Sequence record: LC765218.1
Direction: 5' to 3' (one strand)
Length of the DNA: 64,000 bases
Source: Pseudomonas phage BRkr
Shown here: one piece after another, positions 103 through 11,620 of the stretch
How the letters are laid out: every line of letters starts with the position of its first letter
How positions within the stretch are numbered: the first letter of the stretch is position 1
The notes under the pieces: model-generated
The model's input: only the letters and a program-made list of their open reading frames with translations
Told to the model about the DNA's origin: nothing
Database searches by the model: none
Translations under genes and position numbers: made by a program

Positions 103-591
103 ATGGTTATTAGTCAGAATACTGCTACTGAGATTGATTCTCAAGTTGCCAAAGGTTTATCTATTGGGTATTTCGGTAAAGGAGATGACTTATCTCTTAT
201 TCCCCGTATGATCGGTGACTGGAATATCAGAACAATAGAGGAACAGAGGTCACCCGGAACAGGGTATATTGTGGCGGTTCCATCGAATACACGCACTCGA
301 CTTATTTATGCTGCTGGTCGAATAGCGTGGTTAGTAGCTTTAGGTTACTCTGAGCAAACAGCTCATGTTTATCTTAAAGCTAGTTCTACCGTTGCAAAAC
401 GTTGGGATCATGAGGTGGCACAGTTTGTACTAACTAACTACGGAATTGATACATTTATTCTAGAGCAAGCCTTATCCAGTGATAACCCAAAGAAATATCT
501 AGAATCACAAGGATATTATTCTAGGGTATCTCGTGGTAAGATTATTGCTAGTTGTCAGATTCTTCGCAATATCCGTGGTCTATCAAAATAA
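103..591 (+). CDS. hypothetical protein (162 aa)
   Basis: Intact ORF followed by a GC hairpin plus T-tract at 595-618; no recognisable motif. Confidence 0.5.
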   Translation: MVISQNTATEIDSQVAKGLSIGYFGKGDDLSLIPRMIGDWNIRTIEEQRSPGTGYIVAVPSNTRTRLIYAAGRIAWLVALGYSEQTAHVYLKASSTVAKRWDHEVAQFVLTNYGIDTFILEQALSSDNPKKYLESQGYYSRVSRGKIIASCQILRNIRGLSK

Positions 592-594
592 CTG

Positions 595-618
595 GAGCCT
601 TCGGGCTCCTTTTATTTC
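595..618 (+). terminator. rho-independent terminator (ggagccTTCGggctcc + T-tract)
   Basis: Perfect 6-bp GC stem with TTCG loop, followed by TTTTATTT. Confidence 0.6.
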
Positions 619-667
619 GCATAGTCCCTTATTCTTATGACTTCCTTATCGTAAAGGTTCACTCCCT

Positions 668-1099
668 ATGAGATTCTTTTGTGACGCTGAATTTGACGTA
701 CCAACTGATAGTTTGATTTCTCTTGCTATTGTATCTGAAGATGGCAACCGAGAGTTCTATGAAGTACTCGAACATAAGCATATTCAAGACGACTGGGTAA
801 AGGCAAACGTCATTCCTATTCTTCAAAAAGATCCTATTTCGTTTGAAGAATTCCAGATCCGCCTTGAGAAATTTGTATCGCAATTTGCTGGTATGAATAT
901 AATCGTTAACCACCCCAATGACGTTATTTATTTTAACAAAGCTCTATTAGGGGAGAAGGGGAAATGGATTATGATTCAACCATTGACTTTTGATATTGAT
1001 GATCGTCTCAGTGGTAAAGGATCTAAACTTTTGCACAATGCGCTATTCGATGCCAGGGCGACACGCGAGGACTGGTTTAAAAAGAATGGCTATACATGA
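668..1099 (+). CDS. small DEDDh-type 3'-5' exonuclease domain protein
   Basis: Exo motif I CDAEFD (D-x-E), exo II VNHPNDVIYF (H-N-x-x-D) and exo III HNALFDARAT (H-x4-D), in canonical order and spacing. Confidence 0.55.
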   Translation: MRFFCDAEFDVPTDSLISLAIVSEDGNREFYEVLEHKHIQDDWVKANVIPILQKDPISFEEFQIRLEKFVSQFAGMNIIVNHPNDVIYFNKALLGEKGKWIMIQPLTFDIDDRLSGKGSKLLHNALFDARATREDWFKKNGYT

Positions 1100-1120
1100 A
1101 ACCATTTTGGATAAATAGAA

Positions 1121-1792
1121 ATGACAACTGTACTTGAACAGATGACGGGTAAACCCGGTCGTAAATGCCGAGGCGAATCTCTTTTACGTCTTCTGATCTC
1201 CACGAGTTATCCACAGACAATTCTGTCGGATCTAACATTTGCTTTTACTAAGCACTCTGGAACAGATGACGAAGAGTCGCTTGAAAAACTTGCAGTACTA
1301 ATGCGAAATATCGAAAAAGAATTTGATATGTTCGACTTCATCCGCTGTATTGAAATTAGACGAGATGGCGATGTTATTAACATCATTGTTAAACGACTTG
1401 ATTTTGATCCAACCATGCGTGCACTGAATGATAGTGTTGATACGCATGAACACATGGCTAGCTCGTGCGTAACTCTATCCAATGCAGATGACCGCCTTGA
1501 AGATGTTGAGCAACTAGCTATTAAACTGCTGGAAGTATTCTATCGTTCTCAAGTTAAAGTTAAACGTGGTACAGAAATTGCGACTACAACTTGGAAATGT
1601 CGTTATCGTGAATCTGATCGTCGTAAATCGAAAGCTGAGCAAACTGCGATCGATACTAACCTTGACTTTGAAGGTGTAGTAGAAACAATCGCTGCTTCGC
1701 TCTGTAAGCGCCGTTTCCATTTAGTCCTTACACAGAATGCCTTTCTGCTTCTGGATCAACGTAAACGCATCTGGGGCGTTAGCAGGGGATGA
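1121..1792 (+). CDS. hypothetical protein (223 aa)
   Basis: Long ORF with a plausible composition; ends just before the bidirectional hairpin at 1802-1826. Confidence 0.5.
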   Translation: MTTVLEQMTGKPGRKCRGESLLRLLISTSYPQTILSDLTFAFTKHSGTDDEESLEKLAVLMRNIEKEFDMFDFIRCIEIRRDGDVINIIVKRLDFDPTMRALNDSVDTHEHMASSCVTLSNADDRLEDVEQLAIKLLEVFYRSQVKVKRGTEIATTTWKCRYRESDRRKSKAEQTAIDTNLDFEGVVETIAASLCKRRFHLVLTQNAFLLLDQRKRIWGVSRG

Positions 1793-1801
1793 CAACATAA
1801 A

Positions 1802-1826
1802 GCCTCCCCGAAGGGAGGCGTTTATG
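1802..1826. terminator. bidirectional terminator hairpin (gcctcccCGAAgggaggc) between convergent genes
   Basis: 7-bp GC stem placed between the plus gene ending at 1792 and the minus gene ending at 1830; followed by TTTATG on the plus strand. Confidence 0.55.
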
Positions 1827-1829
1827 TCG

Positions 1830-4800
1830 TTATTGTACAGGTACTGGATTTCCATTAACTGGAATCATCCAACGTTTTGTTGGATCTTCAAAACTTTGAA
1901 GAATCCTTGGTGCACCGTAGATGTCTTTTACCTTAGTGTTAGGTAAGATAGTCCAGGTATCATTAAACCAAGCATATACCGTATTGGTTTTCATATCGCA
2001 AACAATATTTCTCTTTAGACTACTCTCGTAAGTAATGTCTTTGAAATAAGAGTTAGCCTGCGACAAACTACCAAAACCATATTTCTTACCACCTTTGAAA
2101 ATACTTAATTCAGGATGGTCATTTAGATTAATACTCATGTCATAGGCTGGATTAAATGTTGTTCCATTCCAATCCGAACATTTAACATTAAACAGGTCAC
2201 CTGTTCTGATTACCTTAACACGTATGAATCTACCGCTCCAACCTTTAGGTGGTGTTGCTTCCCTAACTGAATATTCCTTATACTCAGTGGGATTCGCATT
2301 CCAAGTCGTATGCTTGCTAAAGTCCTTTACAATGGACTGAACTGGCCATACTGGTCTATTAGACCAATCTCCACTTGGACCGGATATTACTAAGTCAAGT
2401 GTATGGTTACGTCCAGCAGCTTCATCACGATTAAATGCTAGAATAACCGTGTTAAAGTCGTCGTCAGCATCACTTGATGTAAGAGTGACTTCAAGTTCAT
2501 ATGACTCTGGAGCTTCATCAGAAATGAATCCATTATAAAGACTAGTATTGATTGGTTGAACCGCAGCCTGTAATGTATCATTCCAGTACCAACTAGCGGC
2601 ATCACCTTCTGCACCTACACCACCAGGGAATAGTTTATCATTATTAAACCTATCCCAACTCTCGAAGATTTGTTTTGGCGTCGGAGGTTTTAACCTTTCA
2701 AGAGTCTCTAACGTTTCGGCTGTAGTTGCATAAGCTAAACCCTGAACATTAGTTTTCTGTAACTCACCAGTGAAATAACTAATAAGATTCTTAAAGTGAG
2801 AACCTACACTTAAAGTATTATTTAGAATATTGTAAACTGGTCGGAGTTGATGAATATCTTCAACTAGTTTGTGGGGCACTTGGATAGGAGTAACAGAATA
2901 GATAGGTTCACCCGTTTCTGTAGTACCTGTCTTAAATCGATCAAGATACGGCTTGGTATTTTCAGCGCGACCATATCGGTTAGCAATAGCAGGCGTATAA
3001 CGTTTGATCGGTAATCGGGATTCGTACTCAAACGGCTCTACGATTTTAACTCGTATTTCATCGTTATCATTAACATAGATTCCGTCTACTGGATAGATCG
3101 TCTGATGACTACCTGTTTCAGTAGAGTACCAAGCCTGACCAACTTTTGTTTCCCTTGCTGCCGCCGAACCTTCAGAACGGTAAATATCTGCTATAATACT
3201 ACCAACAGAAGATCCATCGATTTCTATTGTAATGTCAGCAATATCAGACAAGTCGGTATCGAGCAGGGTGATATTATTACCTTCTTTATCTTTGAAGATA
3301 ACATAGTCACCTGTACCAATGAGGTATGCGAAACTCATCGACTTAACGCTACCGTCCGTTAACCGTAGCAAGAAGTTAACAGTATGTTTTCCAGGGTTGA
3401 AGGTTAATGTCACTGGATCCTTCTTTTGGAAAACAACTTCTTTAACGACTACACTCGACTCACTACCACCAGCTACGATAAAATCGCCATCAGTTAGATC
3501 ATTGTAGAGAACATGATCGCCGTAAGTCGATCGTATAAATCCAACGTTAACATTCGATCTATCGACAGAACCACTGAAATATGCGTTGAAGTTTACAGCA
3601 AGTTGGTTAGCAGTAACAAAGAAACAGTTAGATGCAGTTGGAACCGGATACGCTTCTTCGATGCTGTTAATAACTGGACCATGGTCTGTAAATATGAAAA
3701 TGCCATTACCAGCTTTCCGATATGTAAGAATATCCTGAATCGCAGTTTGCGTAAACTTACCGTTAACTGATTGATTCGGATCACTTAAAGAACCAACAAA
3801 TACCAACCCTGCGTAATTGTTTAATTCCGTTAAGGTTGGATTTAAATGGGTTCCATCATAATCGGTCTGATCTTTCAGAGTGCATGTAAAACCACCAGCT
3901 CCCGCAACCTTAGTAATGTATTCATTGAACGCGGTCTTCAGTACATAGTTACCAGTAGTTGCATCACCTAGGACAAGAATGTTTTTATTACCGCTAGCGA
4001 CTTTCGCAGGGTTAGCAATAAAATCAAGACAGTTCTTAAAATAGGTTTGACTAGAGTTTAGGTTTTTACCTGGACCAAGATAGCGTTTACGGGTAACAGT
4101 CCAACTACCTATCCAATCCTGCGGTGTTGTTGGATTAACCACAAGACTGTTCGTCATGATAGCGAAAGCAACAGTTGTTCCGTTAAGGATCCGTGCATTT
4201 CTCAGCTGCCCACGATACTCTTTTACAAGGGTAGGATCTGCTTCATTTTCAAATGCCACGGTCCAAGTCGATAACCGCTTACCAACAATGGCTTCCAATG
4301 GGACTGTACGTGTTACCCATTTGTTTTTCCATTCTGGCCTATCTCTACACATAACTGGATGTGTTGCAGTGGCGGGGTTACCATTGTCTTTGATTACAGG
4401 ACTGTAGTTCCTAAATCGAACAGGGTTATTACCAGTTTCATCATAAACAGTACAGTCTAAACCAAAATATGCATCATCGAACACATAGTGATCGTAAACA
4501 AGAACATCTCCACTTTTAACTGTGTAAGTGTTATTGTTAATTACTTCATAGTAGCAAAGGTCTAGACCGTTTGCATCAGGTTGTAGTCTAGCAGAGAAAT
4601 CTAGAACACCCTGAGTCATGGAAATGTTTGCTGCCTGTGGATTCATGAACTTTGGAAAACCACCATCGTAAACAACGTTGCCGTTACCATCTTGGGTAAC
4701 GGCAATGAATGGAGTAGGCGGGCTTAAAGAATCGTAAGCGATATACTCAGAAACGACCGGCGGTAAACCATTAACAGAATACGCGACACCATTAGTAGCG

Positions 4801-5294: not shown

Positions 5295-8200
5295 TCACCG
5301 CAAATATGCGGGAACATTAGATTTGGGTTTAAGGGGTATCTCGAAATCAACTGTCGGAATCTCGATGTCGAATTTTTCGAATGCTTTCTGAAGAACACTA
5401 TGGATTACTTTGTTCTCATCAAACTGTGTTTCATCACCATAGTCTTCCATTGCCTCTCCAATCTCAAATGGAGACTTGATACCCATAATCGCTTCTACTT
5501 GATCCTGACTCCATTTAAGAATATCAGCCGATCGGGTAGAGATATTTGGGATATCCCCAGTATCGAGAGAACACTGGTAAACAACAACTTGAGAATCTTG
5601 ACCTAAACGATAAGCACGAGATATAGCCTGTTCCAGAATATAAGCTCTGAATGGACTATTCAATAGAATCAAGGTATCTGCCATTGTCAGGCGAACAGCC
5701 GTCGATAGAGAAGCATATGTAGCATTGAGTGGATTTAGATCCTTACCCGAATCAAAGCGTTTAACGATTTCAGCCAGTTCATTAGTAGTCTTCCCATAAA
5801 CGGCTAGTGGTTTCATACCTAGCTTAACACAATGTGCATCTGCTGCTTCCACTGCTTCAACAAAGCTAGTAAACATAATCGTCTTCTTGTGAGTAGATTC
5901 TGTAATACCAACCCAGTCGACATACGGGACCATTGCCACGTGGCACTCAATACGTTTACCACCTAACACACGTCCAAGACATTCACCTTGAATCTTAAGG
6001 TTAGTATATTTAATAACCGATTTGATGTCTCTGAACTCATGGATGAATTGCTTTGGAAGGGAAGGTCCAAATACTAATTTCTCGTATTGGTTCGTTGCTT
6101 TAATTTCCTCTCCTGCAAAGCGTGGATCAGGGATCTGTTGAACATACTTGACCAGATCCAAGTACTCTTTGAAGGCTCTTTCCTGTGCGGCTGTTTTGAG
6201 GGTTTTTCGATGGAGTCCACAGAACTCTGCCCAGCGTTTATCATCTTCAGGTCTCCGCTTCTTGTAGTAAGCCCAGCGTTCTTGAATAAATGCTTCCATA
6301 ACCTTTCTAATAGCCGGAAGGGTGAAGTCATCACCATTCGGAATTTTAATTGGATAAGGACGCATGATCGGGGGCTCTAGGTCGAGTTCTTGTTTCTCTA
6401 CCTTGTAGGATACGAGACCTAATCGATGTCTGATTATATCGAGTCCTTTAGATGCTTCTTTACCATACATCTTCTTGAAGCGTTCTTCTACCTGCGGAGT
6501 GAATAGAGGATCTACTATTCGCAGTAAGTTAATCAGTTCAACACCCAATGCTTTTACAGGCGTGCCCGAAGCTAAAAGATTATTACGAGAACCGACCATC
6601 TTTACAATGAGTTGATAAAGTTTAGTCCGTGTAGAGTTAGGGTCATTCATGTTGTGCGATTCATCTAGAATCGTCACAGTACGTTTGCTACCAACTATAT
6701 TACGGTTTCTAAGAAGTTCTACTACCTTATCCATTGCATCGTAATGACAGACGATCCAACGCTGTCCTTTGTAGGGCATATTAGGTTCGAACGTATGCCA
6801 AACTGTTTGCGGCTTATGGAACATCTCTTTCAGGGAATCTAACCAGACTAGATCCAAAGCATTCTTAGGACACATTACAACAATGAGTTCAGCATCAAGC
6901 ATCTCGGCAATAGCTGAAGTAAGATATGTGTTATGTGTCACGACGAAATCATCGGTTACATAAAGGTGATCGGGATGTTCAACCTGAATACATTGACATT
7001 CCACTCGATCTGACAGGTTAACATGTTTCACCTGTAAACGAAGATTATCCGCGTATTGGTGATTGTCGTTGCATCGAGCTATTTTGCGATCAAGGCGGAA
7101 AAGCGCACTGGGGGTATCAAACCGGACAGCTACCCGATAAGACATGTTACCGTACTTCTTGACGCCGTTGTACGTGAATGTAGGCTCTTTGAACGCCAGT
7201 TTGGCAATTCCACCCAGGGAACGAACTAGGTACTGGAACTGCTTGGCTAACATGTAGCTGCAACTGGTGAAACTGAGGTTGCTATTCTCGTCAACTGTAC
7301 CATCCGTGTCCATAAGACCTTGTACAAGAGCCAATCGCTGGGCAGTAGAACTGAACAGGTATTCTTGCGGAATGAATTTAGAAAGGGAATTCGTTCCTAG
7401 CAAATTCATATCTCGAAGAGCACTGATATATGGGTTACGTTCACCTTTCTTGTTGATGACCCCCATGGTAATGGAGTCACGGGCAATAAGATTGAGGTTA
7501 TCCGGGAGAGCTTTACTAAACGTGTCGAATAGCTGAGGATCACCACTGGTAATGGTCACACAACTCGAACTGATCCCACCGGCGCCAAGAATAACTCCGA
7601 GGTTATACGGATCGATCGGTAGATCGACATCCATACCTTCTTCGGACTTACAGAGTTGCACGTAAAGTCGATTCCGGTATGACTTCATAGACATGTAACC
7701 GAACAGGGTGGCGGTGTTGATTACTCGCCAACCATCGCTACCGTCCCTCGTCCAATTATAGCAATAGACTCGCCATAGGTGCTCATCACATGCTTCGGTC
7801 GTGCGACCGTCTTTGAAGGTAACCGTAAAAGTTTGTTTCTTCCCTTGTGGGTAAACGCCGGTGACCTTAGTCGGGGTACCGTCCCAAGCAGTGACCATGT
7901 CACCAACTTGAATATCACCCATACGTTTCCAGCCACCAGGAATTTTAACCATGGCGTTTAGTGGTTGTGCCTTACCCGTACCGGCGGCCGCGGCAATTAA
8001 GTCACCATTTAGATTGTATTGATCTAGCCGATAGGTATAGTTCTTGAAATATTCTAATTGATACGGTTTTGGATCAAATTTTAATCGAGACAGATTAGCT
8101 AGATTAAGTCGCCCTTGTACTGATTTCTCATCAATGGCTTTAGTAGAGGCAAGCCAAGTATTCTGTAAAAGCGCATCTTTAATAGCAGCGATCATTTTTA

Positions 8201-8450
8201 CAGAGGTGTATCGAGAACGGTAATAGACAATGTTTTCCAACATGTACATTACTTCAGGTGCAAAGAACTTATAGAAGCTTAATGAGTTCCGACCAATGTT
8301 GTTGAACAAGTTGGTTGTAATCTTGGAAGTCTTCCAATGCTTACTGATATCTCGGACTATGTCGAAGCCACGAATACCAGAGATGATAATCTCCGTTTCA
8401 GTTTCTTTGACTGTCAAGCCGCCAAATATCGAACGGAATGAGTCTAACAT
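5295..8450 (-). CDS. SNF2-family helicase/ATPase interrupted by an intein in the Walker A P-loop
   Basis: DEAH box ILDESH, motif III LLASGTP and textbook SNF2 motif VI QAISRAYRLGQ. Walker A is split as AAAAGTGK|intein|TYLTSAIAEM, which restores GTGKT after excision. Confidence 0.85.
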   Translation of the reverse strand: MLDSFRSIFGGLTVKETETEIIISGIRGFDIVRDISKHWKTSKITTNLFNNIGRNSLSFYKFFAPEVMYMLENIVYYRSRYTSVKMIAAIKDALLQNTWLASTKAIDEKSVQGRLNLANLSRLKFDPKPYQLEYFKNYTYRLDQYNLNGDLIAAAAGTGKAQPLNAMVKIPGGWKRMGDIQVGDMVTAWDGTPTKVTGVYPQGKKQTFTVTFKDGRTTEACDEHLWRVYCYNWTRDGSDGWRVINTATLFGYMSMKSYRNRLYVQLCKSEEGMDVDLPIDPYNLGVILGAGGISSSCVTITSGDPQLFDTFSKALPDNLNLIARDSITMGVINKKGERNPYISALRDMNLLGTNSLSKFIPQEYLFSSTAQRLALVQGLMDTDGTVDENSNLSFTSCSYMLAKQFQYLVRSLGGIAKLAFKEPTFTYNGVKKYGNMSYRVAVRFDTPSALFRLDRKIARCNDNHQYADNLRLQVKHVNLSDRVECQCIQVEHPDHLYVTDDFVVTHNTYLTSAIAEMLDAELIVVMCPKNALDLVWLDSLKEMFHKPQTVWHTFEPNMPYKGQRWIVCHYDAMDKVVELLRNRNIVGSKRTVTILDESHNMNDPNSTRTKLYQLIVKMVGSRNNLLASGTPVKALGVELINLLRIVDPLFTPQVEERFKKMYGKEASKGLDIIRHRLGLVSYKVEKQELDLEPPIMRPYPIKIPNGDDFTLPAIRKVMEAFIQERWAYYKKRRPEDDKRWAEFCGLHRKTLKTAAQERAFKEYLDLVKYVQQIPDPRFAGEEIKATNQYEKLVFGPSLPKQFIHEFRDIKSVIKYTNLKIQGECLGRVLGGKRIECHVAMVPYVDWVGITESTHKKTIMFTSFVEAVEAADAHCVKLGMKPLAVYGKTTNELAEIVKRFDSGKDLNPLNATYASLSTAVRLTMADTLILLNSPFRAYILEQAISRAYRLGQDSQVVVYQCSLDTGDIPNISTRSADILKWSQDQVEAIMGIKSPFEIGEAMEDYGDETQFDENKVIHSVLQKAFEKFDIEIPTVDFEIPLKPKSNVPAYLR
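6930..7970 (-). mobile_element. intein (~347 aa) with a LAGLIDADG homing-endonuclease domain; Ala-1 N-terminus
   Basis: Begins AQPLNAMVKIPGGW directly after GTGK and ends VVTHN followed by Thr+1. Block B-like TEACDEHLW, LAGLIDADG-like LALVQGLMDTDGTV, block F Cys (VECQCIQV). Confidence 0.7.
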
Positions 8451-8718: not shown

Positions 8719-9672
8719 TCATCGAATCAAACGTAAAGCTGGATTGAATCCACGGCTACTACCATAAGCTGTAAAAGCATTGTCAAGCTGGTGAGCGATA
8801 GATGTGCTAAATCCACGTTGGATACAACGGTTATCTTCAGTAACAGCTTTATAGAAAATATTCAAGCCATTACCTGGAGCTATAGACGATGGTAACTGAT
8901 TACCATAACGACTGCGTTGATAACCAGAATACAACTGTCCAGTTGGGTTTACTGCTGTATTGAATAGACGTTCGAAGGTATCTAAAGCTAGATCATTCAT
9001 CACATGGAGACTTACCATCGCATCAGTAGCATTGGTGTATACTACCTTATCACCATGTGGGATACATCCAACAGCAAAACTATTACCATTCCTAGAATAG
9101 ATCCTACCCTGCATTACAGCTGGATTAGTGAGAGATGATGGCAAAGTACCAACACCGTCTTCTACCGTATCAAGGAGAACACCTGTCCTATAAACATCCA
9201 TGAATGACATTCCAGAATATGGAACTCTGTTCGGGATGTAATACGTTACACCTTTGAACTGTATTTTCCATGCTTCTGTTGGTTGATCAACAGTATTCGT
9301 GAAGTTAGATGGTAAAGCCAAATTTGTTTTAAAATCAGCCACCTCAAAGACATCTTCGATTGGACATGTTCCGAAGTAGCCAATCCACCAGTCACCGAAT
9401 ACGGGAGTTTCGGGACCAGGTCCTTTATTAGTGTAATCAATAATGCAAATAGCTTTTACATCACTCAATACGAAAGAACCTGTATTGTCCGTACCAATAA
9501 CAAGATAGAAATAAGGTGTATCTTTCAAAGCAGTATCGTCTACAAATTCTCGATCAGTAACATCCAGCTGCTTAAAAACAGCTGGAAGATTATTCACATC
9601 AAATGGTTCTGTAGAACGATAAGCTTTTAAGTCAACAATATCACCTGTAACCGAAAAGCCTACTTTAATCAT
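8719..9672 (-). CDS. paralog 1 of 4: FN3-like N-terminus, putative fiber/adhesin-like protein (317 aa)
   Basis: Shares the YRSxT...YYY N-terminal block, the GPGP...GYFG block and W/DVY blocks with the three upstream ORFs. Confidence 0.55.
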   Translation of the reverse strand: MIKVGFSVTGDIVDLKAYRSTEPFDVNNLPAVFKQLDVTDREFVDDTALKDTPYFYLVIGTDNTGSFVLSDVKAICIIDYTNKGPGPETPVFGDWWIGYFGTCPIEDVFEVADFKTNLALPSNFTNTVDQPTEAWKIQFKGVTYYIPNRVPYSGMSFMDVYRTGVLLDTVEDGVGTLPSSLTNPAVMQGRIYSRNGNSFAVGCIPHGDKVVYTNATDAMVSLHVMNDLALDTFERLFNTAVNPTGQLYSGYQRSRYGNQLPSSIAPGNGLNIFYKAVTEDNRCIQRGFSTSIAHQLDNAFTAYGSSRGFNPALRLIR

Positions 9673-9680
9673 CGAATCAC

Positions 9681-10631
9681 CTATAGCTCTAGTTCTAGAA
9701 TTGGCATGAATGCAGCCGCGCTATTTACCAGAGTACTGGAAACGTTTATAAGCGCTGCACCTCTGACCAATATAGACTGGGTTTCACCTACGAATGTACG
9801 CGTCATGAAGATACCCGAACCAGGTGCGCCGCCCGTCATTACAACGTTCGTTGAAGTCGAGTTAACGCGTGTTTTAAGGTTAGGCTTATTGATGTTCGAT
9901 GCATATGCAATTAGACGATCCCATGTGAGGCCAAGTAGATCATTAAACTGATCATAGACAGCCTGTCCAGCAGCTATACTTGCGAGTGATCGTTCACCAG
10001 CAAATGTAGGCAGGCCAACTCTGTAACTATGATTCTTAATAATGACAGTCTTACCTTGTTCGGTTGGCGTACCAACTACAGTCTTAACAGGAGCAGGAAG
10101 ATCATCCCAATGGTCTCCGGACGTTGACCAAGCACAACCCGCATTATAGACATCGGCCCAACGTAGGTTATAAGCCACGTAGCGAATTGGCAGCATGAAA
10201 ATGCGCCCATCTACAACGAACTTATGCCAAATGAAATCCGTTACAGGTGGAATTCTAATATCAGTCAAAAGACTGAGTCCACAAAGATCTGTTATTTCAC
10301 CAGGTAATACAAAATCTGGAACCTCACCAAAATAACCTAATTCATAGTCTCCAGAACGAAGGGTATTTGGTCCGAAACCAGTGTAAGGCATGTTAGCAAG
10401 TGCAACCACTTTGGAATAGGTTACATCACCATTTTCAAAATTAGAACCGATGCAGTAATAGTAGACTTTATTTCTAATAGCTGTTGTATCATCGTATTCT
10501 TTGATGTTTCCTTGCACATTAACTAATACACTAGGTAATGTCGATTCATCGAATTTTGTTTCAGAACGAAAAATATCAAATGTGACTGCTTCGCGATCAT
10601 TGGTCAAACCCCATTGTACTTTAATACCCAT
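9681..10631 (-). CDS. paralog 2 of 4 (316 aa)
   Basis: FRSETKF...VYYYCIGS, FGPNTL...GYFGEVP, DVYNAG; C-terminus PILELEL. Confidence 0.55.
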   Translation of the reverse strand: MGIKVQWGLTNDREAVTFDIFRSETKFDESTLPSVLVNVQGNIKEYDDTTAIRNKVYYYCIGSNFENGDVTYSKVVALANMPYTGFGPNTLRSGDYELGYFGEVPDFVLPGEITDLCGLSLLTDIRIPPVTDFIWHKFVVDGRIFMLPIRYVAYNLRWADVYNAGCAWSTSGDHWDDLPAPVKTVVGTPTEQGKTVIIKNHSYRVGLPTFAGERSLASIAAGQAVYDQFNDLLGLTWDRLIAYASNINKPNLKTRVNSTSTNVVMTGGAPGSGIFMTRTFVGETQSILVRGAALINVSSTLVNSAAAFMPILELEL

Positions 10632-10633
10632 TA

Positions 10634-11620
10634 TTACACCTCAAAGTCAACGAAGTTACCAGGGATAAGTTCCAGTACAGGGAACCAAATGTTTGAACTT
10701 GAGGTTCTACTTGTATGTTGAGGTACAAAAGCCGAAGCTTTCGTTGCACTCGTATTTCGCGAAATATATGCAAAAGCTTGAGTGGTTGGAGTATCTCGTG
10801 TTAGAATAGCTTTATTATTAACACGTGTAGCCTCATTATCACCGGTTACGTTAACTCGTTCCAATGTTTTATTAGCATAGAACTGACTAGTTATACCAGC
10901 TAAAAATAACTCGACGGTACCATTGCTGAGAGATGGGTCAGAATTACCTAATGCAGTCGCCGCGGATGACGATAGATCACTAACAGAATTAGGATCATCG
11001 TGATCAACTAGAACGGAAGGTAAAGATACCTCAAACTCAGATAGAGCAAAGTTAATTCGCTTGCCCTGAGGAACAGGAGTAGTCACACCAGGGACAGTGG
11101 ATGGTACTGCATTCCTACTGTACACTAGACCCGCATTATAGAGGTCCATCCAGTACAGATCACCAGTAGCGATGGAATATTCAGGTACATAGAAAGTCCG
11201 TCCTTTCCATGCGAATTTATGCCAACGTTGACCAGCATTATTAGCGGCGTTCCAGGACAAACCACAACGAGCGATTAGTTCACTGTCCGAAATAAATTCA
11301 ACAGTGGGAAGAGAACCGTAGTAACCATAATTGATGTTACCTGCAACTAAGCGCTGTGGACCAGGTCCAGTGAAAGGCACCGCATGGAACTGGAATACAC
11401 GAGATTTAGCTACATCCCCATCTTTCGATGATTCAAACATGTAGTAGTAAATAAGTCCATATGTAAGCCCTTCGTCAGCATAACCGTCAACGTCACCATT
11501 GACTTCTGCTATTGGTGTACCAGGGTTGTTTCTATCAATCATTGTTGCCGATCGATAAATTTTAATACTTACGGACGCGTCGTTTGGGTTTACCCAACGT
11601 AGATTGATTGTAAATGCCAT
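10634..11620 (-). CDS. paralog 3 of 4 (328 aa)
   Basis: IYRSATM...YYYMFES, FTGPGPQRL...GYYGSLP, DLYNAG; C-terminus WFPVLELIPGN. Confidence 0.55.
   Translation of the reverse strand: MAFTINLRWVNPNDASVSIKIYRSATMIDRNNPGTPIAEVNGDVDGYADEGLTYGLIYYYMFESSKDGDVAKSRVFQFHAVPFTGPGPQRLVAGNINYGYYGSLPTVEFISDSELIARCGLSWNAANNAGQRWHKFAWKGRTFYVPEYSIATGDLYWMDLYNAGLVYSRNAVPSTVPGVTTPVPQGKRINFALSEFEVSLPSVLVDHDDPNSVSDLSSSAATALGNSDPSLSNGTVELFLAGITSQFYANKTLERVNVTGDNEATRVNNKAILTRDTPTTQAFAYISRNTSATKASAFVPQHTSRTSSSNIWFPVLELIPGNFVDFEV

What the first reader, a model, noticed from the sequence alone, without database searches (positions are those of the whole stretch)
6930..7970. Ala-1 intein with a LAGLIDADG endonuclease inserted exactly in the Walker A P-loop of an SNF2 helicase
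The host protein reads AAAAGTGK | AQPLN...VVTHN | TYLTSAIAEM. Only removal of the 347-aa element regenerates GTGKT. The element has the N-terminal Ala typical of class 2/3 inteins, a block-B-like TEACDEHLW, a LAGLIDADG-like LALVQGLMDTDGTV and the penultimate HN plus Thr+1. P-loop insertion is the classic intein niche, but in an SNF2-type helicase of a phage it marks both a mobile-element invasion and an essential gene.
Basis: seen in the sequence. Interest (0 to 1): 0.6.

Follow-up and report, generated by a model that had tools for sequence, protein, structure and literature searches.

The report
Class 3 intein in phage helicase

Summary
ORF 5295-8450 (-) encodes a 1051-aa precursor. Residues 161-507 (window 6930-7970, -) read A1...THN|T and split the Walker A motif GTGK|T.

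A related Pseudomonas jumbo phage, HPP-Temi, carries a 704-aa allele with no insert and the predicted junction.

The element belongs to a large intein family, and in 107 aligned members the class 3 signature never varies:
- His B:10, Trp B:12, Cys F:4, Thr G:5 and the terminal His-Asn are in 107 of 107.
- Ala1 is in 104 of 107.
- The +1 residue is always Thr or Ser.

C327, W66 and T345 align with the experimentally defined residues of the M. smegmatis DnaB-1 class 3 intein. An AlphaFold model (pLDDT 96.8) matches PI-SceI-type inteins and class 3 mini-inteins.

- It is class 3, not class 2.
- The host gene is the orthologue of phiKZ gp203, a head-packaged helicase reported as non-essential.

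In this phage alone, the catalytic Asp of the first LAGLIDADG motif is Ala, so the endonuclease is probably crippled.

Relatives show ongoing turnover at the site: a 64%-identical allele starting with Ser1, a degenerate 274-aa intein in SL2, and an orthologous intein in PhiPA3.

Verdict: a real feature, and a new member of a known kind.

The parts
5295..8450 (-). Precursor gene: 1051-aa helicase plus intein, stop codon included. Orthologue of phiKZ gp203 and PhiPA3 gp233.
   Evidence: ORF list. tblastn of the spliced product finds 203 phage records, including phiKZ PHIKZ203 at 57.6% and PhiPA3 gp233 at 67% identity.
7971..8450 (-). N-extein, residues 1-160, ending in AAAAGTGK.
   Evidence: It is 100% identical in protein to phiLBG22 and PS119XW.
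7971..7991 (-). Walker A (P-loop) residues A154-K160. The motif is completed by Thr+1 at 6927-6929 only after the intein is removed.
   Evidence: On the spliced sequence the Pfam ResIII match improves from E = 6e-4 (partial) to 2.3e-10 and spans the junction.
6930..7970 (-). Class 3 intein, 347 aa (A1...H346-N347).
   Evidence: Family profile E = 5e-131. An intein-less allele exists. AlphaFold model pLDDT 96.8. Foldseek matches PI-SceI, the TliVMA intein and class 3 DnaB inteins.
7968..7970 (-). Ala1 (block A), a non-nucleophilic first residue.
   Evidence: Ala in 104 of 107 family members.
7773..7790 (-). Block B core, C61-D-E-H64-L-W66. H64 is B:10 and W66 is B:12, the Trp of the WCT triplet. 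B:7 is Cys.
   Evidence: H and W are in 107 of 107 members, and Cys at B:7 in 93 of 107. H64/W66 align with H65/W67 of the M. smegmatis DnaB-1 intein (numbering from PMC5222942).
7056..7655 (-). LAGLIDADG homing-endonuclease domain, about residues 106-305, inserted between the two halves of the splicing domain.
   Evidence: Pfam LAGLIDADG_3. Foldseek matches PI-SceI, PI-PfuI and I-DmoI. dN/dS is about 0.09-0.12 against phiLBG22 and phiHQ.
7575..7601 (-). First LAGLIDADG motif, LGVILGAGG (residues 124-132). Codon 7581-7583 (GCC) encodes Ala130 where the catalytic Asp belongs.
   Evidence: Asp in 97 of 107 family members. The other five intein alleles compared in Pawinskivirus-type phages and PhiPA3 read GAT or GDG. 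Residue 130 ends helix 121-130 in the model, as D223 ends helix 209-223.
7299..7325 (-). Second LAGLIDADG motif, VQGLMDTDG (residues 216-224), with the catalytic Asp223 intact.
   Evidence: Asp in 106 of 107 members. Pfam match covers residues 211-258.
6990..6992 (-). Cys327 (block F position 4), the predicted class 3 initiating nucleophile.
   Evidence: Cys in 107 of 107 members. It aligns with Cys118 of the M. smegmatis DnaB-1 intein, the defined F:4 residue.
6930..6938 (-). Block G: Thr345 (G:5, the Thr of the triplet), His346, Asn347.
   Evidence: All three are in 107 of 107 members.
6927..6929 (-). Thr+1, the first C-extein residue. It is both the splice-acceptor nucleophile and the Walker A Thr.
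   Evidence: The +1 residue is Thr in 91 and Ser in 14 of 105 relatives, never Cys.
5298..6929 (-). C-extein, 544 aa: the rest of the SF2/SNF2-type ATPase core and the Helicase_C domain.
   Evidence: Pfam SNF2-rel_dom 27.8 bits (cut-off 24.9) and Helicase_C 28.1 bits. PHROG_62 'DNA helicase' E = 1e-132.

Best explanation
The 347-aa insert is a class 3 intein that contains a LAGLIDADG homing-endonuclease domain. It sits between Lys and Thr of the Walker A motif of a Chimalliviridae (Pawinskivirus-type) SF2/SNF2 helicase, the orthologue of phiKZ gp203.

Inferred mechanism, by homology to the Bethlehem DnaB and M. smegmatis DnaB-1 inteins:
1. The gene is translated as a 1051-aa precursor that cannot bind ATP, because its P-loop is split.
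2. Ala1 cannot start the usual acyl shift. Instead Cys327 (block F:4), assisted by His64 and Trp66 (B:10, B:12) and Thr345 (G:5), attacks the Lys160-Ala1 peptide bond. This forms a thioester-linked 'block F' branched intermediate.
3. The N-extein is passed to the side chain of Thr+1.
4. Asn347 cyclises and releases the intein.
5. An O-to-N shift gives the 704-aa helicase with GTGKT restored.

At the DNA level the element spreads by homing. Its endonuclease cuts empty alleles in co-infecting phages, and repair copies the intein in.

In this phage the first catalytic Asp is Ala, so the endonuclease is probably inactive or at best a nickase. The intein is then inherited vertically as a splicing-competent passenger.

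What is shown: the anatomy, the homology, the residue conservation, the empty allele and the allele turnover. What is inferred: splicing, the branched intermediate, and the state of the endonuclease.
For: Insertion and boundaries:
- The insertion is precise. HPP-Temi has a 704-aa intein-less allele with the junction GTGK|TYLTS.
- Ten further orthologous genes read at this junction, including phiKZ and 201phi2-1, are also uninterrupted.
- Removing the insert restores a contiguous ResIII/SNF2 ATPase match.

Family and class 3 signature:
- 187 homologues at E <= 1e-5.
- In 107 aligned inteins, A1 is in 104, and H64, W66, C327, T345, H346 and N347 are each in 107.
- Of 105 relatives, 76 sit in GxxxxGK|[ST] sites. 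The +1 residue is Thr 91 times and Ser 14 times.
- In a direct HMMER alignment to M. smegmatis DnaB-1 (PDB 6bs8), H64/W66/C327/T345/N347 fall on H65/W67/C118/T137/N139. H65, W67, C118 and N139 are the residues named in PMC5222942.
- Definition and mechanism of class 3: PMC2807308 and PMC4031507.

Fold:
- The AlphaFold model has pLDDT 96.8 and pTM 0.93.
- Foldseek gives PI-SceI at TM 0.77-0.79, the TliVMA intein at E = 5e-18, class 3 DnaB mini-inteins at target TM 0.87-0.90, and I-DmoI.

Selection and origin:
- dN/dS in the intein is 0.06-0.10 against phiLBG22 and phiHQ.
- Against PhiPA3 the intein is 82% identical in protein, while the exteins are 63-69% identical.
- The intein has 47.3% G+C against 39-42% in the exteins.

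Mobility:
- Against phiLBG22 the exteins differ at 3 of 2115 nt but the intein at 27 of 1041 nt.
- Against PS119XW the exteins are 97-98% identical in DNA but the intein only 62.6%.
- HPP-Temi's empty site is identical over +-15 nt.
Against: - No experiment shows splicing, the block F intermediate or endonuclease activity for this element.
- Pfam and NCBIfam splicing-domain models match only below their curated cut-offs: Hom_end_hint 18.8 bits against 32.1, and intein_Cterm 14.8 against 15.6. The splicing-domain assignment therefore rests on the family profile, the PDB homologues and the predicted fold.
- Grafting the WCT triplet onto a class 1 intein did not give splicing (PMC7664689), so the triplet alone does not guarantee activity.
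- The host gene's orthologue is dispensable in phiKZ, and PA1C carries a 1-nt frameshift inside the intein. A non-splicing copy could therefore be tolerated.
- The effect of Asp130Ala on the endonuclease is inferred from general knowledge of LAGLIDADG enzymes. It was not measured.
Confidence: 0.88

Rival explanations
1. The element is a decaying, splicing-dead intein. The helicase is then a pseudogene in this phage, tolerated because the gp203-type helicase is dispensable.
For: - The phiKZ orthologue gp203 tolerates transposon insertions (PMC12676376).
- PA1C has a frameshift inside the intein.
- The window allele has already lost an endonuclease catalytic residue.
- SL2 shows an advanced stage of endonuclease decay at the same site.
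Against: - Every splicing residue is intact and invariant across the family.
- The splicing halves show dN/dS of 0 to about 0.3, based on very few substitutions, and are 99-100% identical in protein to phiLBG22 and phiHQ.
- The exteins of intein-bearing phages remain under strong purifying selection (dN/dS 0.02-0.09).
- Even the degenerate SL2 intein keeps A1, HLW, QCI and THN|T, as expected if splicing is still required.
Confidence: 0.07
2. It is an intein, but it splices by the class 1 or class 2 route rather than by the class 3 route through Cys F:4.
For: - Ala1 also occurs in class 2 (KlbA) inteins.
- The sister allele in PS119XW and HHBS36_1 starts with Ser1, a possible class 1 nucleophile.
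Against: - Ala1 cannot perform the class 1 acyl shift.
- Class 2 inteins are KlbA orthologues with Cys+1, Ser at G:6, Asp at F:4 and no WCT triplet (PMC4031507). Here the +1 residue is Thr, G:6 is His, and F:4 is an invariant Cys with the full triplet.
- WCT inteins with Ser1 or Cys1 were already noted in the defining paper (3 of 37; PMC2807308).
Confidence: 0.04
3. The insert is a native accessory domain of this helicase, such as a DNA-binding LAGLIDADG or WhiA-like module, and is not removed from the protein.
For: LAGLIDADG folds have been recruited as DNA-binding domains. WhiA appears among the weaker Foldseek matches (rank 36).
Against: - Orthologues work without it and have an unbroken P-loop.
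- If retained, it would split GxxxxGK|T.
- The same element sits at P-loops of unrelated ATPases: PhoH, DnaB, the large terminase subunit, RecG-like and Clp-like proteins.
- It has intact intein termini.
Confidence: 0.01

Closest known systems
Mycobacteriophage Bethlehem DnaB intein (MP-Be DnaB), the prototype class 3 intein (Tori et al. 2010, PMC2807308)
   Same: - The first residue is non-nucleophilic.
- It has the Trp B:12 / Cys F:4 / Thr G:5 triplet, Thr+1 and a terminal His-Asn.
- It is phage-borne, lies in a helicase, and is of a similar size (Asn341 against Asn347) with an endonuclease domain.
   Different: - The host protein is DnaB rather than an SF2/SNF2 helicase.
- B:7 is Ser62 there and Cys61 here.
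- No sequence comparison with MP-Be itself was run. Only the related DnaB-1 inteins were compared.
Deinococcus radiodurans Snf2 intein (Brace et al. 2010, cited in PMC4031507 and PMC5222942), the class 3 intein in which the block F branched intermediate was detected
   Same: It is a class 3 intein in an Snf2-family helicase. The defining paper states that such inteins occur in DnaB, RecG, SNF2 and terminase proteins, mostly in the ATPase P-loop.
   Different: - It is bacterial rather than from a jumbo phage.
- I could not obtain its sequence or the paper, so its insertion site and identity to this intein are untested.
- Bacterial SNF2 genes with this intein family at DDMGLGK|T were seen in Hymenobacter and an Anaerolineae MAG.
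M. smegmatis and M. chimaera DnaB-1 class 3 mini-inteins (PDB 6bs8, 6rix, 6riy)
   Same: - These are the best solved-structure relatives of the splicing domain (E = 6e-9; Foldseek target TM 0.87-0.90).
- The catalytic residues align one to one.
   Different: - They are mini-inteins without an endonuclease domain.
- They are about 12% identical in the structure-based alignment.
- They come from the bacterial replicative helicase.
Mycobacteriophage TerL1-a 'classic' P-loop inteins (Kelley et al. 2016, PMC5050341)
   Same: - The insertion lies between the invariant Lys and the nucleophilic Thr of Walker A.
- They are phage-borne, with LAGLIDADG endonuclease blocks C, D, E and H.
- The paper shows the WCT triplet conserved in phage class 3 inteins.
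   Different: - The host protein is the large terminase subunit.
- The phages infect actinobacteria rather than being Pseudomonas chimalliviruses.
PI-SceI (VMA1 intein) and the TliVMA intein
   Same: The two-domain architecture is the same: a HINT splicing domain plus a double-motif LAGLIDADG endonuclease. Query TM is 0.77-0.79.
   Different: - They are class 1 inteins (Cys1, Cys+1).
- They are 14-17% identical.
- Both of their catalytic Asp residues are present (established knowledge for PI-SceI, not tested here).
PhiPA3 gp233 intein (GenBank HQ630627; annotated only as 'putative SNF2 domain helicase' or 'DarB-like antirestriction')
   Same: It lies in the same host gene at the same site, starts with Ala1, is 345 aa long and 82% identical, and has both GDG and DTDG motifs intact.
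   Different: - It is not described as an intein in any paper I could search.
- Its first LAGLIDADG Asp is retained, unlike in the window.

Membership tests
Intein (HINT protein-splicing element) | In-frame insertion, absent from orthologues, whose exact removal restores a conserved host motif | tested here: met
   HPP-Temi's 704-aa allele has GTGK|TYLTS. Ten further orthologous genes read at this junction are uninterrupted. The ResIII match becomes contiguous after removal.
Intein (HINT protein-splicing element) | Splicing blocks A, B, F and G, with a terminal His-Asn and a Ser/Thr/Cys at +1 | tested here: met
   H64, H346 and N347 are in 107 of 107 members, and the +1 residue is Thr. PDB intein homologues score E = 2e-9. 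Pfam and NCBIfam HINT models match only below their cut-offs.
Intein (HINT protein-splicing element) | HINT fold | tested here: met
   The AlphaFold model (pLDDT 96.8) matches PI-SceI, VMA, PI-PfuI, class 3 DnaB, Prp8 and Hedgehog HINT structures. This is a predicted structure, not a solved one.
Intein (HINT protein-splicing element) | Protein splicing demonstrated (ligated exteins plus free intein) | not testable with these tools
   This needs expression with western blot or mass spectrometry.
Class 3 intein | Non-nucleophilic N-terminal residue | tested here: met
   Ala1, found in 104 of 107 family members. The sister allele in PS119XW has Ser1. The defining paper also records WCT inteins with Ser1 or Cys1.
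Class 3 intein | Trp at block B position 12 | tested here: met
   W66, two residues after His B:10, is in 107 of 107 members and aligns with W67 of M. smegmatis DnaB-1.
Class 3 intein | Cys at block F position 4 | tested here: met
   C327 is in 107 of 107 members and aligns with C118 of M. smegmatis DnaB-1.
Class 3 intein | Thr at block G position 5, and Thr/Ser at +1 | tested here: met
   T345 is in 107 of 107 members. The +1 residue is Thr here, and Thr or Ser in 105 of 105 relatives.
Class 3 intein | Block F branched intermediate; absolute requirement for Cys F:4 | not testable with these tools
   This needs mutagenesis (C327A or C327S) and detection of the intermediate, as in PMC2807308 and PMC5222942.
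Class 2 (KlbA-type) intein | Ala1 with Cys+1, Ser at G:6, Asp at F:4 and no WCT triplet | tested here: not met
   The element has Thr+1, His at G:6, Cys at F:4 and the WCT triplet. Definition from PMC4031507.
Double-motif LAGLIDADG homing endonuclease | Two LAGLIDADG helices in one chain, with the LAGLIDADG fold | tested here: met
   The motifs lie at residues 124-132 and 216-224, at the ends of helices 121-130 and 209-223. Pfam LAGLIDADG_3 matches. Foldseek matches I-DmoI and PI-SceI.
Double-motif LAGLIDADG homing endonuclease | A catalytic acidic residue at the end of each motif | tested here: not met
   Motif 2 has D223. Motif 1 has Ala130 (codon GCC), where 97 of 107 relatives, the other five intein alleles compared and PhiPA3 have Asp. 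The family is an active-type endonuclease; this copy is probably impaired.
Double-motif LAGLIDADG homing endonuclease | Site-specific cleavage of the empty allele | not testable with these tools
   The candidate target exists: HPP-Temi's site is identical over +-15 nt.
SNF2 / SF2 helicase (host protein) | Walker A, SNF2-related ATPase core and Helicase_C | tested here: met
   On the spliced sequence: ResIII E = 2.3e-10, SNF2-rel_dom 27.8 bits (cut-off 24.9) and Helicase_C 28.1 bits (cut-off 23.5). PHROG_62 'DNA helicase' E = 1e-132. The SNF2-specific score is only just above its cut-off, so 'SF2, SNF2-like' is the safe name.

The most novel reading that the evidence does not exclude
The P-loop of the gp203-type, head-packaged helicase may be a contested homing site among Pseudomonas aeruginosa chimalliviruses. 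At least three divergent class 3 intein lineages plus empty alleles coexist there.

Under this reading, the intein endonuclease does more than copy itself. Like the intron endonuclease gp210 of PhiPA3 (PMC11620839), it would have to be imported into the phage nucleus, where it could act as an interference-competition weapon against co-infecting phages that lack the intein.

A second, independent novel possibility concerns the conserved Cys pair at B:7 and F:4 (C61 and C327). This pair could make splicing of a virion helicase redox-conditional, as in M. smegmatis DnaBi1.
Probability: 0.12. Interest if true: 0.6.

Novelty: new member of a known kind. Interest (0 to 1): 0.28.

Why it matters
Practical value for annotation:
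- The GenBank records for this phage group label the gene 'hypothetical protein', 'DarB-like antirestriction protein', or two separate 'SNF2 domain helicase' CDSs.
- None marks the intein, so the mature protein (704 aa, P-loop intact) is misdescribed.

Biological value:
- The group gives a compact natural series for studying intein turnover in nucleus-forming jumbo phages. The series contains:
  - an empty site (HPP-Temi);
  - two 64%-identical full-length alleles, one starting with Ala1 and one with Ser1, in host genes whose exteins are 96.8-99.4% identical in DNA;
  - an endonuclease point mutant (this window);
  - a possible frameshift (PA1C);
  - a degenerate mini-like copy (SL2).
- In these phages a homing endonuclease must cross the phage nuclear shell to reach its target.

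This does not change what is known about inteins. Class 3 inteins in the P-loops of phage helicases, SNF2 included, were described in 2010.

Tried and rejected
- Pfam and NCBIfam splicing-domain models (Hint, Hom_end_hint, intein_Cterm) match only below their curated cut-offs. They could not be used for membership, so I relied on a family profile, PDB homologues and the predicted fold instead.
- Tori & Perler 2011 (PMC3133030) and Brace et al. 2010 on the D. radiodurans Snf2 intein (PMC2923505) are not held. The D. radiodurans insertion site and sequence could therefore not be compared.
A narrower alignment, A2, worked, but Deinococcus was not among the 80 loci kept.
- Model coordinates are not exposed to scripts. 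Distances between C327, C61, H64, T345 and the scissile bond could not be measured.
- I considered recent horizontal transfer of the intein between PhiPA3 and the Pawinskivirus lineage, because the intein is 82% identical against 63-69% for the exteins. Synonymous sites are saturated in both intein and exteins, so the difference may only reflect stronger constraint. This is left open.
- I looked for a second intein of this family in the window and found none.
- I found no published description of an intein in Pawinskivirus, PhiPA3 gp233 or gp203-type helicases in the searchable library.
Full report
**1. The observation**

ORF 5295..8450 on the minus strand encodes 1051 aa. DDFVVTHN | TYLTSAIAEM...

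The insert is residues 161-507, which is window 6930..7970 (-), 347 aa. Removing it leaves 704 aa with GTGKT restored. The coordinates, the length and the size of the spliced product are all exactly as stated.

**2. It is an insertion, not a native domain**

The gene is 97.5-99% identical in DNA to Pseudomonas jumbo phages phiLBG22, phiHQ and PA1C. PS119XW and HHBS36_1 match at 95-96% over the 74-76% of the gene that aligns. PS119XW is the type species of Pawinskivirus, family Chimalliviridae.

HPP-Temi, a more distant member of the genus, encodes a 704-aa 'DNA helicase' whose sequence runs ...AAAAGTGK-TYLTSAIAEM... with no insert.

tblastn with the spliced product finds 203 phage records. Examples:
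- phiKZ PHIKZ203, 57.6% identical, uninterrupted.
- 201phi2-1, 65% identical, uninterrupted.
- PhiPA3 gp233, 67% identical, interrupted.

Six of seven IMG/VR relatives are also uninterrupted.

On the spliced sequence, the Pfam ResIII match becomes contiguous across the junction (E = 2.3e-10). SNF2-rel_dom and Helicase_C both pass their cut-offs. PHROG_62 'DNA helicase' scores E = 1e-132.

**3. It is an intein of a large, recognisable family**

A database search with the insert returns 187 proteins at E <= 1e-5. The full-length matches are 30-48% identical.

In these proteins the homologous segment starts AQPL and ends (V/I/L)THN. In 105 relatives, the insertion sites and the +1 residue are:

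| Site or residue | Count (of 105) |
|---|---|
| Canonical Walker A, GxxxxGK\|[ST] | 76 |
| Second PhoH site, RGR\|T | 17 |
| Thr at +1 | 91 |
| Ser at +1 | 14 |

The hosts are unrelated P-loop NTPases: mostly PhoH, but also DnaB, SNF2, the large terminase subunit, ABC and AAA proteins.

The family is widespread:
- 735 phage records contain it. These include Mycobacterium, Salmonella and Vibrio phages and many jumbo phages such as EL.
- At least 583 loci in bacterial genomes contain it. Hosts include DnaB at GRPSMGK|T, RecG-like and Clp-like ATPases, and bacterial SNF2 proteins at DDMGLGK|T.

A profile of 107 members scores this ORF at E = 5e-131 and nothing else in the window.

The AlphaFold model built on the family alignment is very confident, with pLDDT 96.8 and pTM 0.93. 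Its Foldseek matches in the PDB are:
- PI-SceI, TM 0.77-0.79.
- The TliVMA intein, E = 5e-18.
- PI-PfuI and PI-PkoII.
- The class 3 DnaB mini-inteins 6bs8, 6rix and 6riy, with target TM up to 0.90.
- I-DmoI.

The architecture is therefore a HINT splicing domain split by a LAGLIDADG endonuclease domain.

**4. It is class 3**

The defining paper (PMC2807308) characterises class 3 by four things:
- a non-nucleophilic first residue;
- a co-varying Trp (B:12), Cys (F:4), Thr (G:5) triplet;
- Thr or Ser at +1;
- occurrence in helicase-like proteins (DnaB, RecG, SNF2, terminase), mostly in the P-loop.

Conservation in the 107-member alignment:

| Residue | Block position | Members (of 107) |
|---|---|---|
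| Ala1 | A:1 | 104 |
| His64 | B:10 | 107 |
| Trp66 | B:12 | 107 |
| Cys327 | F:4 | 107 |
| Thr345 | G:5 | 107 |
| His346 | G:6 | 107 |
| Asn347 | G:7 | 107 |

The HMMER alignment to the M. smegmatis DnaB-1 intein puts H64/W66/C327/T345/N347 on H65/W67/C118/T137/N139. H65, W67, C118 and N139 are the residues listed in PMC5222942.

Class 2 features (Cys+1, Ser at G:6, Asp at F:4, no triplet; PMC4031507) are absent.

The mechanism is inferred by homology:
1. Cys327 attacks the Lys160-Ala1 bond and forms the block F branched thioester.
2. The N-extein is transferred to Thr+1.
3. Asn347 cyclises.
4. An O-to-N shift completes the ligation.

None of this was or could be tested here. WCT grafting experiments show that the triplet alone is not sufficient (PMC7664689).

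**5. The endonuclease**

There are two LAGLIDADG motifs:
- LGVILGAGG (residues 124-132) and VQGLMDTDG (residues 216-224).
- They lie at the ends of helices 121-130 and 209-223 of the model.

Conservation of the catalytic acid differs between the two motifs:
- The second motif has Asp in 106 of 107 relatives, and in the window.
- The first motif has Asp in 97 of 107 relatives.
- PhiPA3 and the other five intein alleles compared (phiLBG22, phiHQ, PA1C, PS119XW, HHBS36_1) also have Asp in the first motif.
- The window has Ala130, codon GCC where those alleles read GAT.

From general knowledge of LAGLIDADG enzymes, each motif supplies one metal-binding acid to one of two active sites. This copy should therefore be inactive for double-strand cleavage, or at most a nickase. 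That is an inference.

Across the lineage the endonuclease domain is under purifying selection. dN/dS is about 0.09-0.12 against phiLBG22 and phiHQ, and the domain is 82.5% identical in protein to PhiPA3. The loss is therefore recent and specific to this phage.

**6. Signs of mobility and turnover**

- Mosaic divergence. Against phiLBG22 the exteins differ at 3 of 2115 nt, but the intein differs at 27 of 1041 nt, and 21 of the 26 changed codons are synonymous.
- Two alleles in near-identical genes. PS119XW and HHBS36_1 carry, at the same site, an allele only 62.6% identical in DNA and 64% in protein. It starts SLRL (Ser1) instead of AQPL but keeps W, C, T and HN. Their exteins are 96.8-99.4% identical in DNA.
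- PhiPA3 gp233 has an Ala1 intein that is 82% identical.
- Decay in SL2. Phikzvirus SL2 has a 274-aa intein at the same site. Its endonuclease region carries a deletion and the second motif reads MDTCG, yet the splicing residues are intact.
- Possible frameshift in PA1C. One C of a CC pair is deleted inside the endonuclease domain, which splits the annotation into two CDSs. It may be real or a sequencing error.
- Foreign composition. The intein has 47.3% G+C against 39-42% in the exteins.
- An available target. HPP-Temi's empty site is identical to the window's extein junction over +-15 nt.
- A local tract of low divergence. Across the gene, the window's spliced sequence and HPP-Temi differ at 17% of nt, but nt 361-600 around the site differ at only 5.4%. 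The longest mismatch-free run in the gene (38 nt) straddles the insertion point. This could be a recombination or co-conversion tract. It is unexplained.

**7. The host gene**

- It co-pellets with genomic DNA, and it tolerates transposon insertions (PMC12676376; see also the bioRxiv core-genome paper).
- The gene's neighbours here and in the relatives are virion structural genes.

**8. Comparison with what is known, and novelty**

Everything about the element fits the published description of class 3 inteins, including occurrence in SNF2 proteins and a proposed phage origin.

I found no paper that describes an intein in Pawinskivirus, PhiPA3 gp233 or gp203-type helicases. The GenBank records do not annotate it either.

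It is therefore a new member of a known kind.

**9. The most novel reading not excluded**

In nucleus-forming phages the intein endonuclease must enter the phage nucleus to reach its target. It might then act in competition between phages, as shown for the PhiPA3 intron endonuclease gp210 (PMC11620839). Separately, the conserved Cys61/Cys327 pair might make splicing redox-sensitive. Both readings are speculative.

Noticed in passing
window 7581-7583 (-), intein residue 130: The catalytic Asp of the first LAGLIDADG motif is Ala (GCC) in this phage only. phiLBG22, phiHQ, PA1C, PS119XW and HHBS36_1 have GAT, PhiPA3 reads GDG, and 97 of 107 family members have Asp. The two-base change creates a GGCGCC site.
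   Followed up: yes
L004 (PS119XW) and L002 (HHBS36_1), 1501-4650: A second intein allele sits at the identical site. It is 345 aa long, 64% identical in protein, and starts with Ser1 (SLRLDAD...) instead of the family-wide AQPL, but keeps the Trp-Cys-Thr triplet. The last N-extein codon is AAA instead of AAG. The exteins are 96.8-99.4% identical in DNA to the window.
   Followed up: partly
L003 (PA1C) 1501-4655, gene position 977: A one-base deletion (GACGCCATT to GACGCATT) inside the intein's endonuclease domain splits the gene into two annotated 'SNF2 domain helicase' CDSs. It is either a sequencing error or a real pseudogene, which would be tolerable if the helicase is dispensable.
   Followed up: partly
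L014 (Phikzvirus SL2) 301-3234: The gp203 orthologue carries a 274-aa class 3 intein at the same P-loop site. Its endonuclease is degenerate, with an internal deletion and the second motif reading MDTCG. The splicing residues are intact (A1, HLW, QCI, THN|T).
   Followed up: partly
L001 (HPP-Temi) 2525-4639 against the window exteins: Divergence drops from 17% across the gene to 5.4% in nt 361-600 around the empty insertion site. The longest identical run (38 nt) straddles the site. This may be a recombination or co-conversion tract.
   Followed up: partly
window 7788-7790 and 6990-6998 (-): intein C61, C325, C327: Block B position 7 is Cys in 93 of 107 family members (motif CxxHLW) instead of the usual Thr. 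It should lie near the catalytic Cys327, and the window also has a CQC at residues 325-327. This is a possible disulfide or redox or metal switch. Distances could not be measured.
   Followed up: no
window 8719-11620 (-): Three tandem ORFs of 317, 316 and 328 aa lie upstream of the helicase. They share motifs (YYY, GPGP, GYFG, a W.KF...Y.P core) and look like paralogues. Relatives annotate them as virion structural proteins.
   Followed up: no
L015 (Salmonella phage SA002) about 2058-4648: An intein of the same family (49.7% identical) sits in a different SF2 helicase next to the RNA polymerase beta-subunit genes. The N-extein and the intein are in different reading frames at an A-rich run just before GK|AQPL, so the gene is annotated as 'helicase 1' and 'helicase 2'.
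   Followed up: no
window 6930-7970 against its flanks: The intein has 47.3% G+C, against 39.4% in the N-extein, 41.7% in the C-extein and 42.8% in the whole window.
   Followed up: yes
L016-L095 (bacterial genomes): The same AQPL...THN intein family is common in bacterial chromosomes, with at least 583 loci. Most are at the DnaB P-loop of Polynucleobacter, Massilia, Trinickia and Paraburkholderia. It also occurs in bacterial SNF2 genes at DDMGLGK|T (Hymenobacter L064, Anaerolineae L095).
   Followed up: partly
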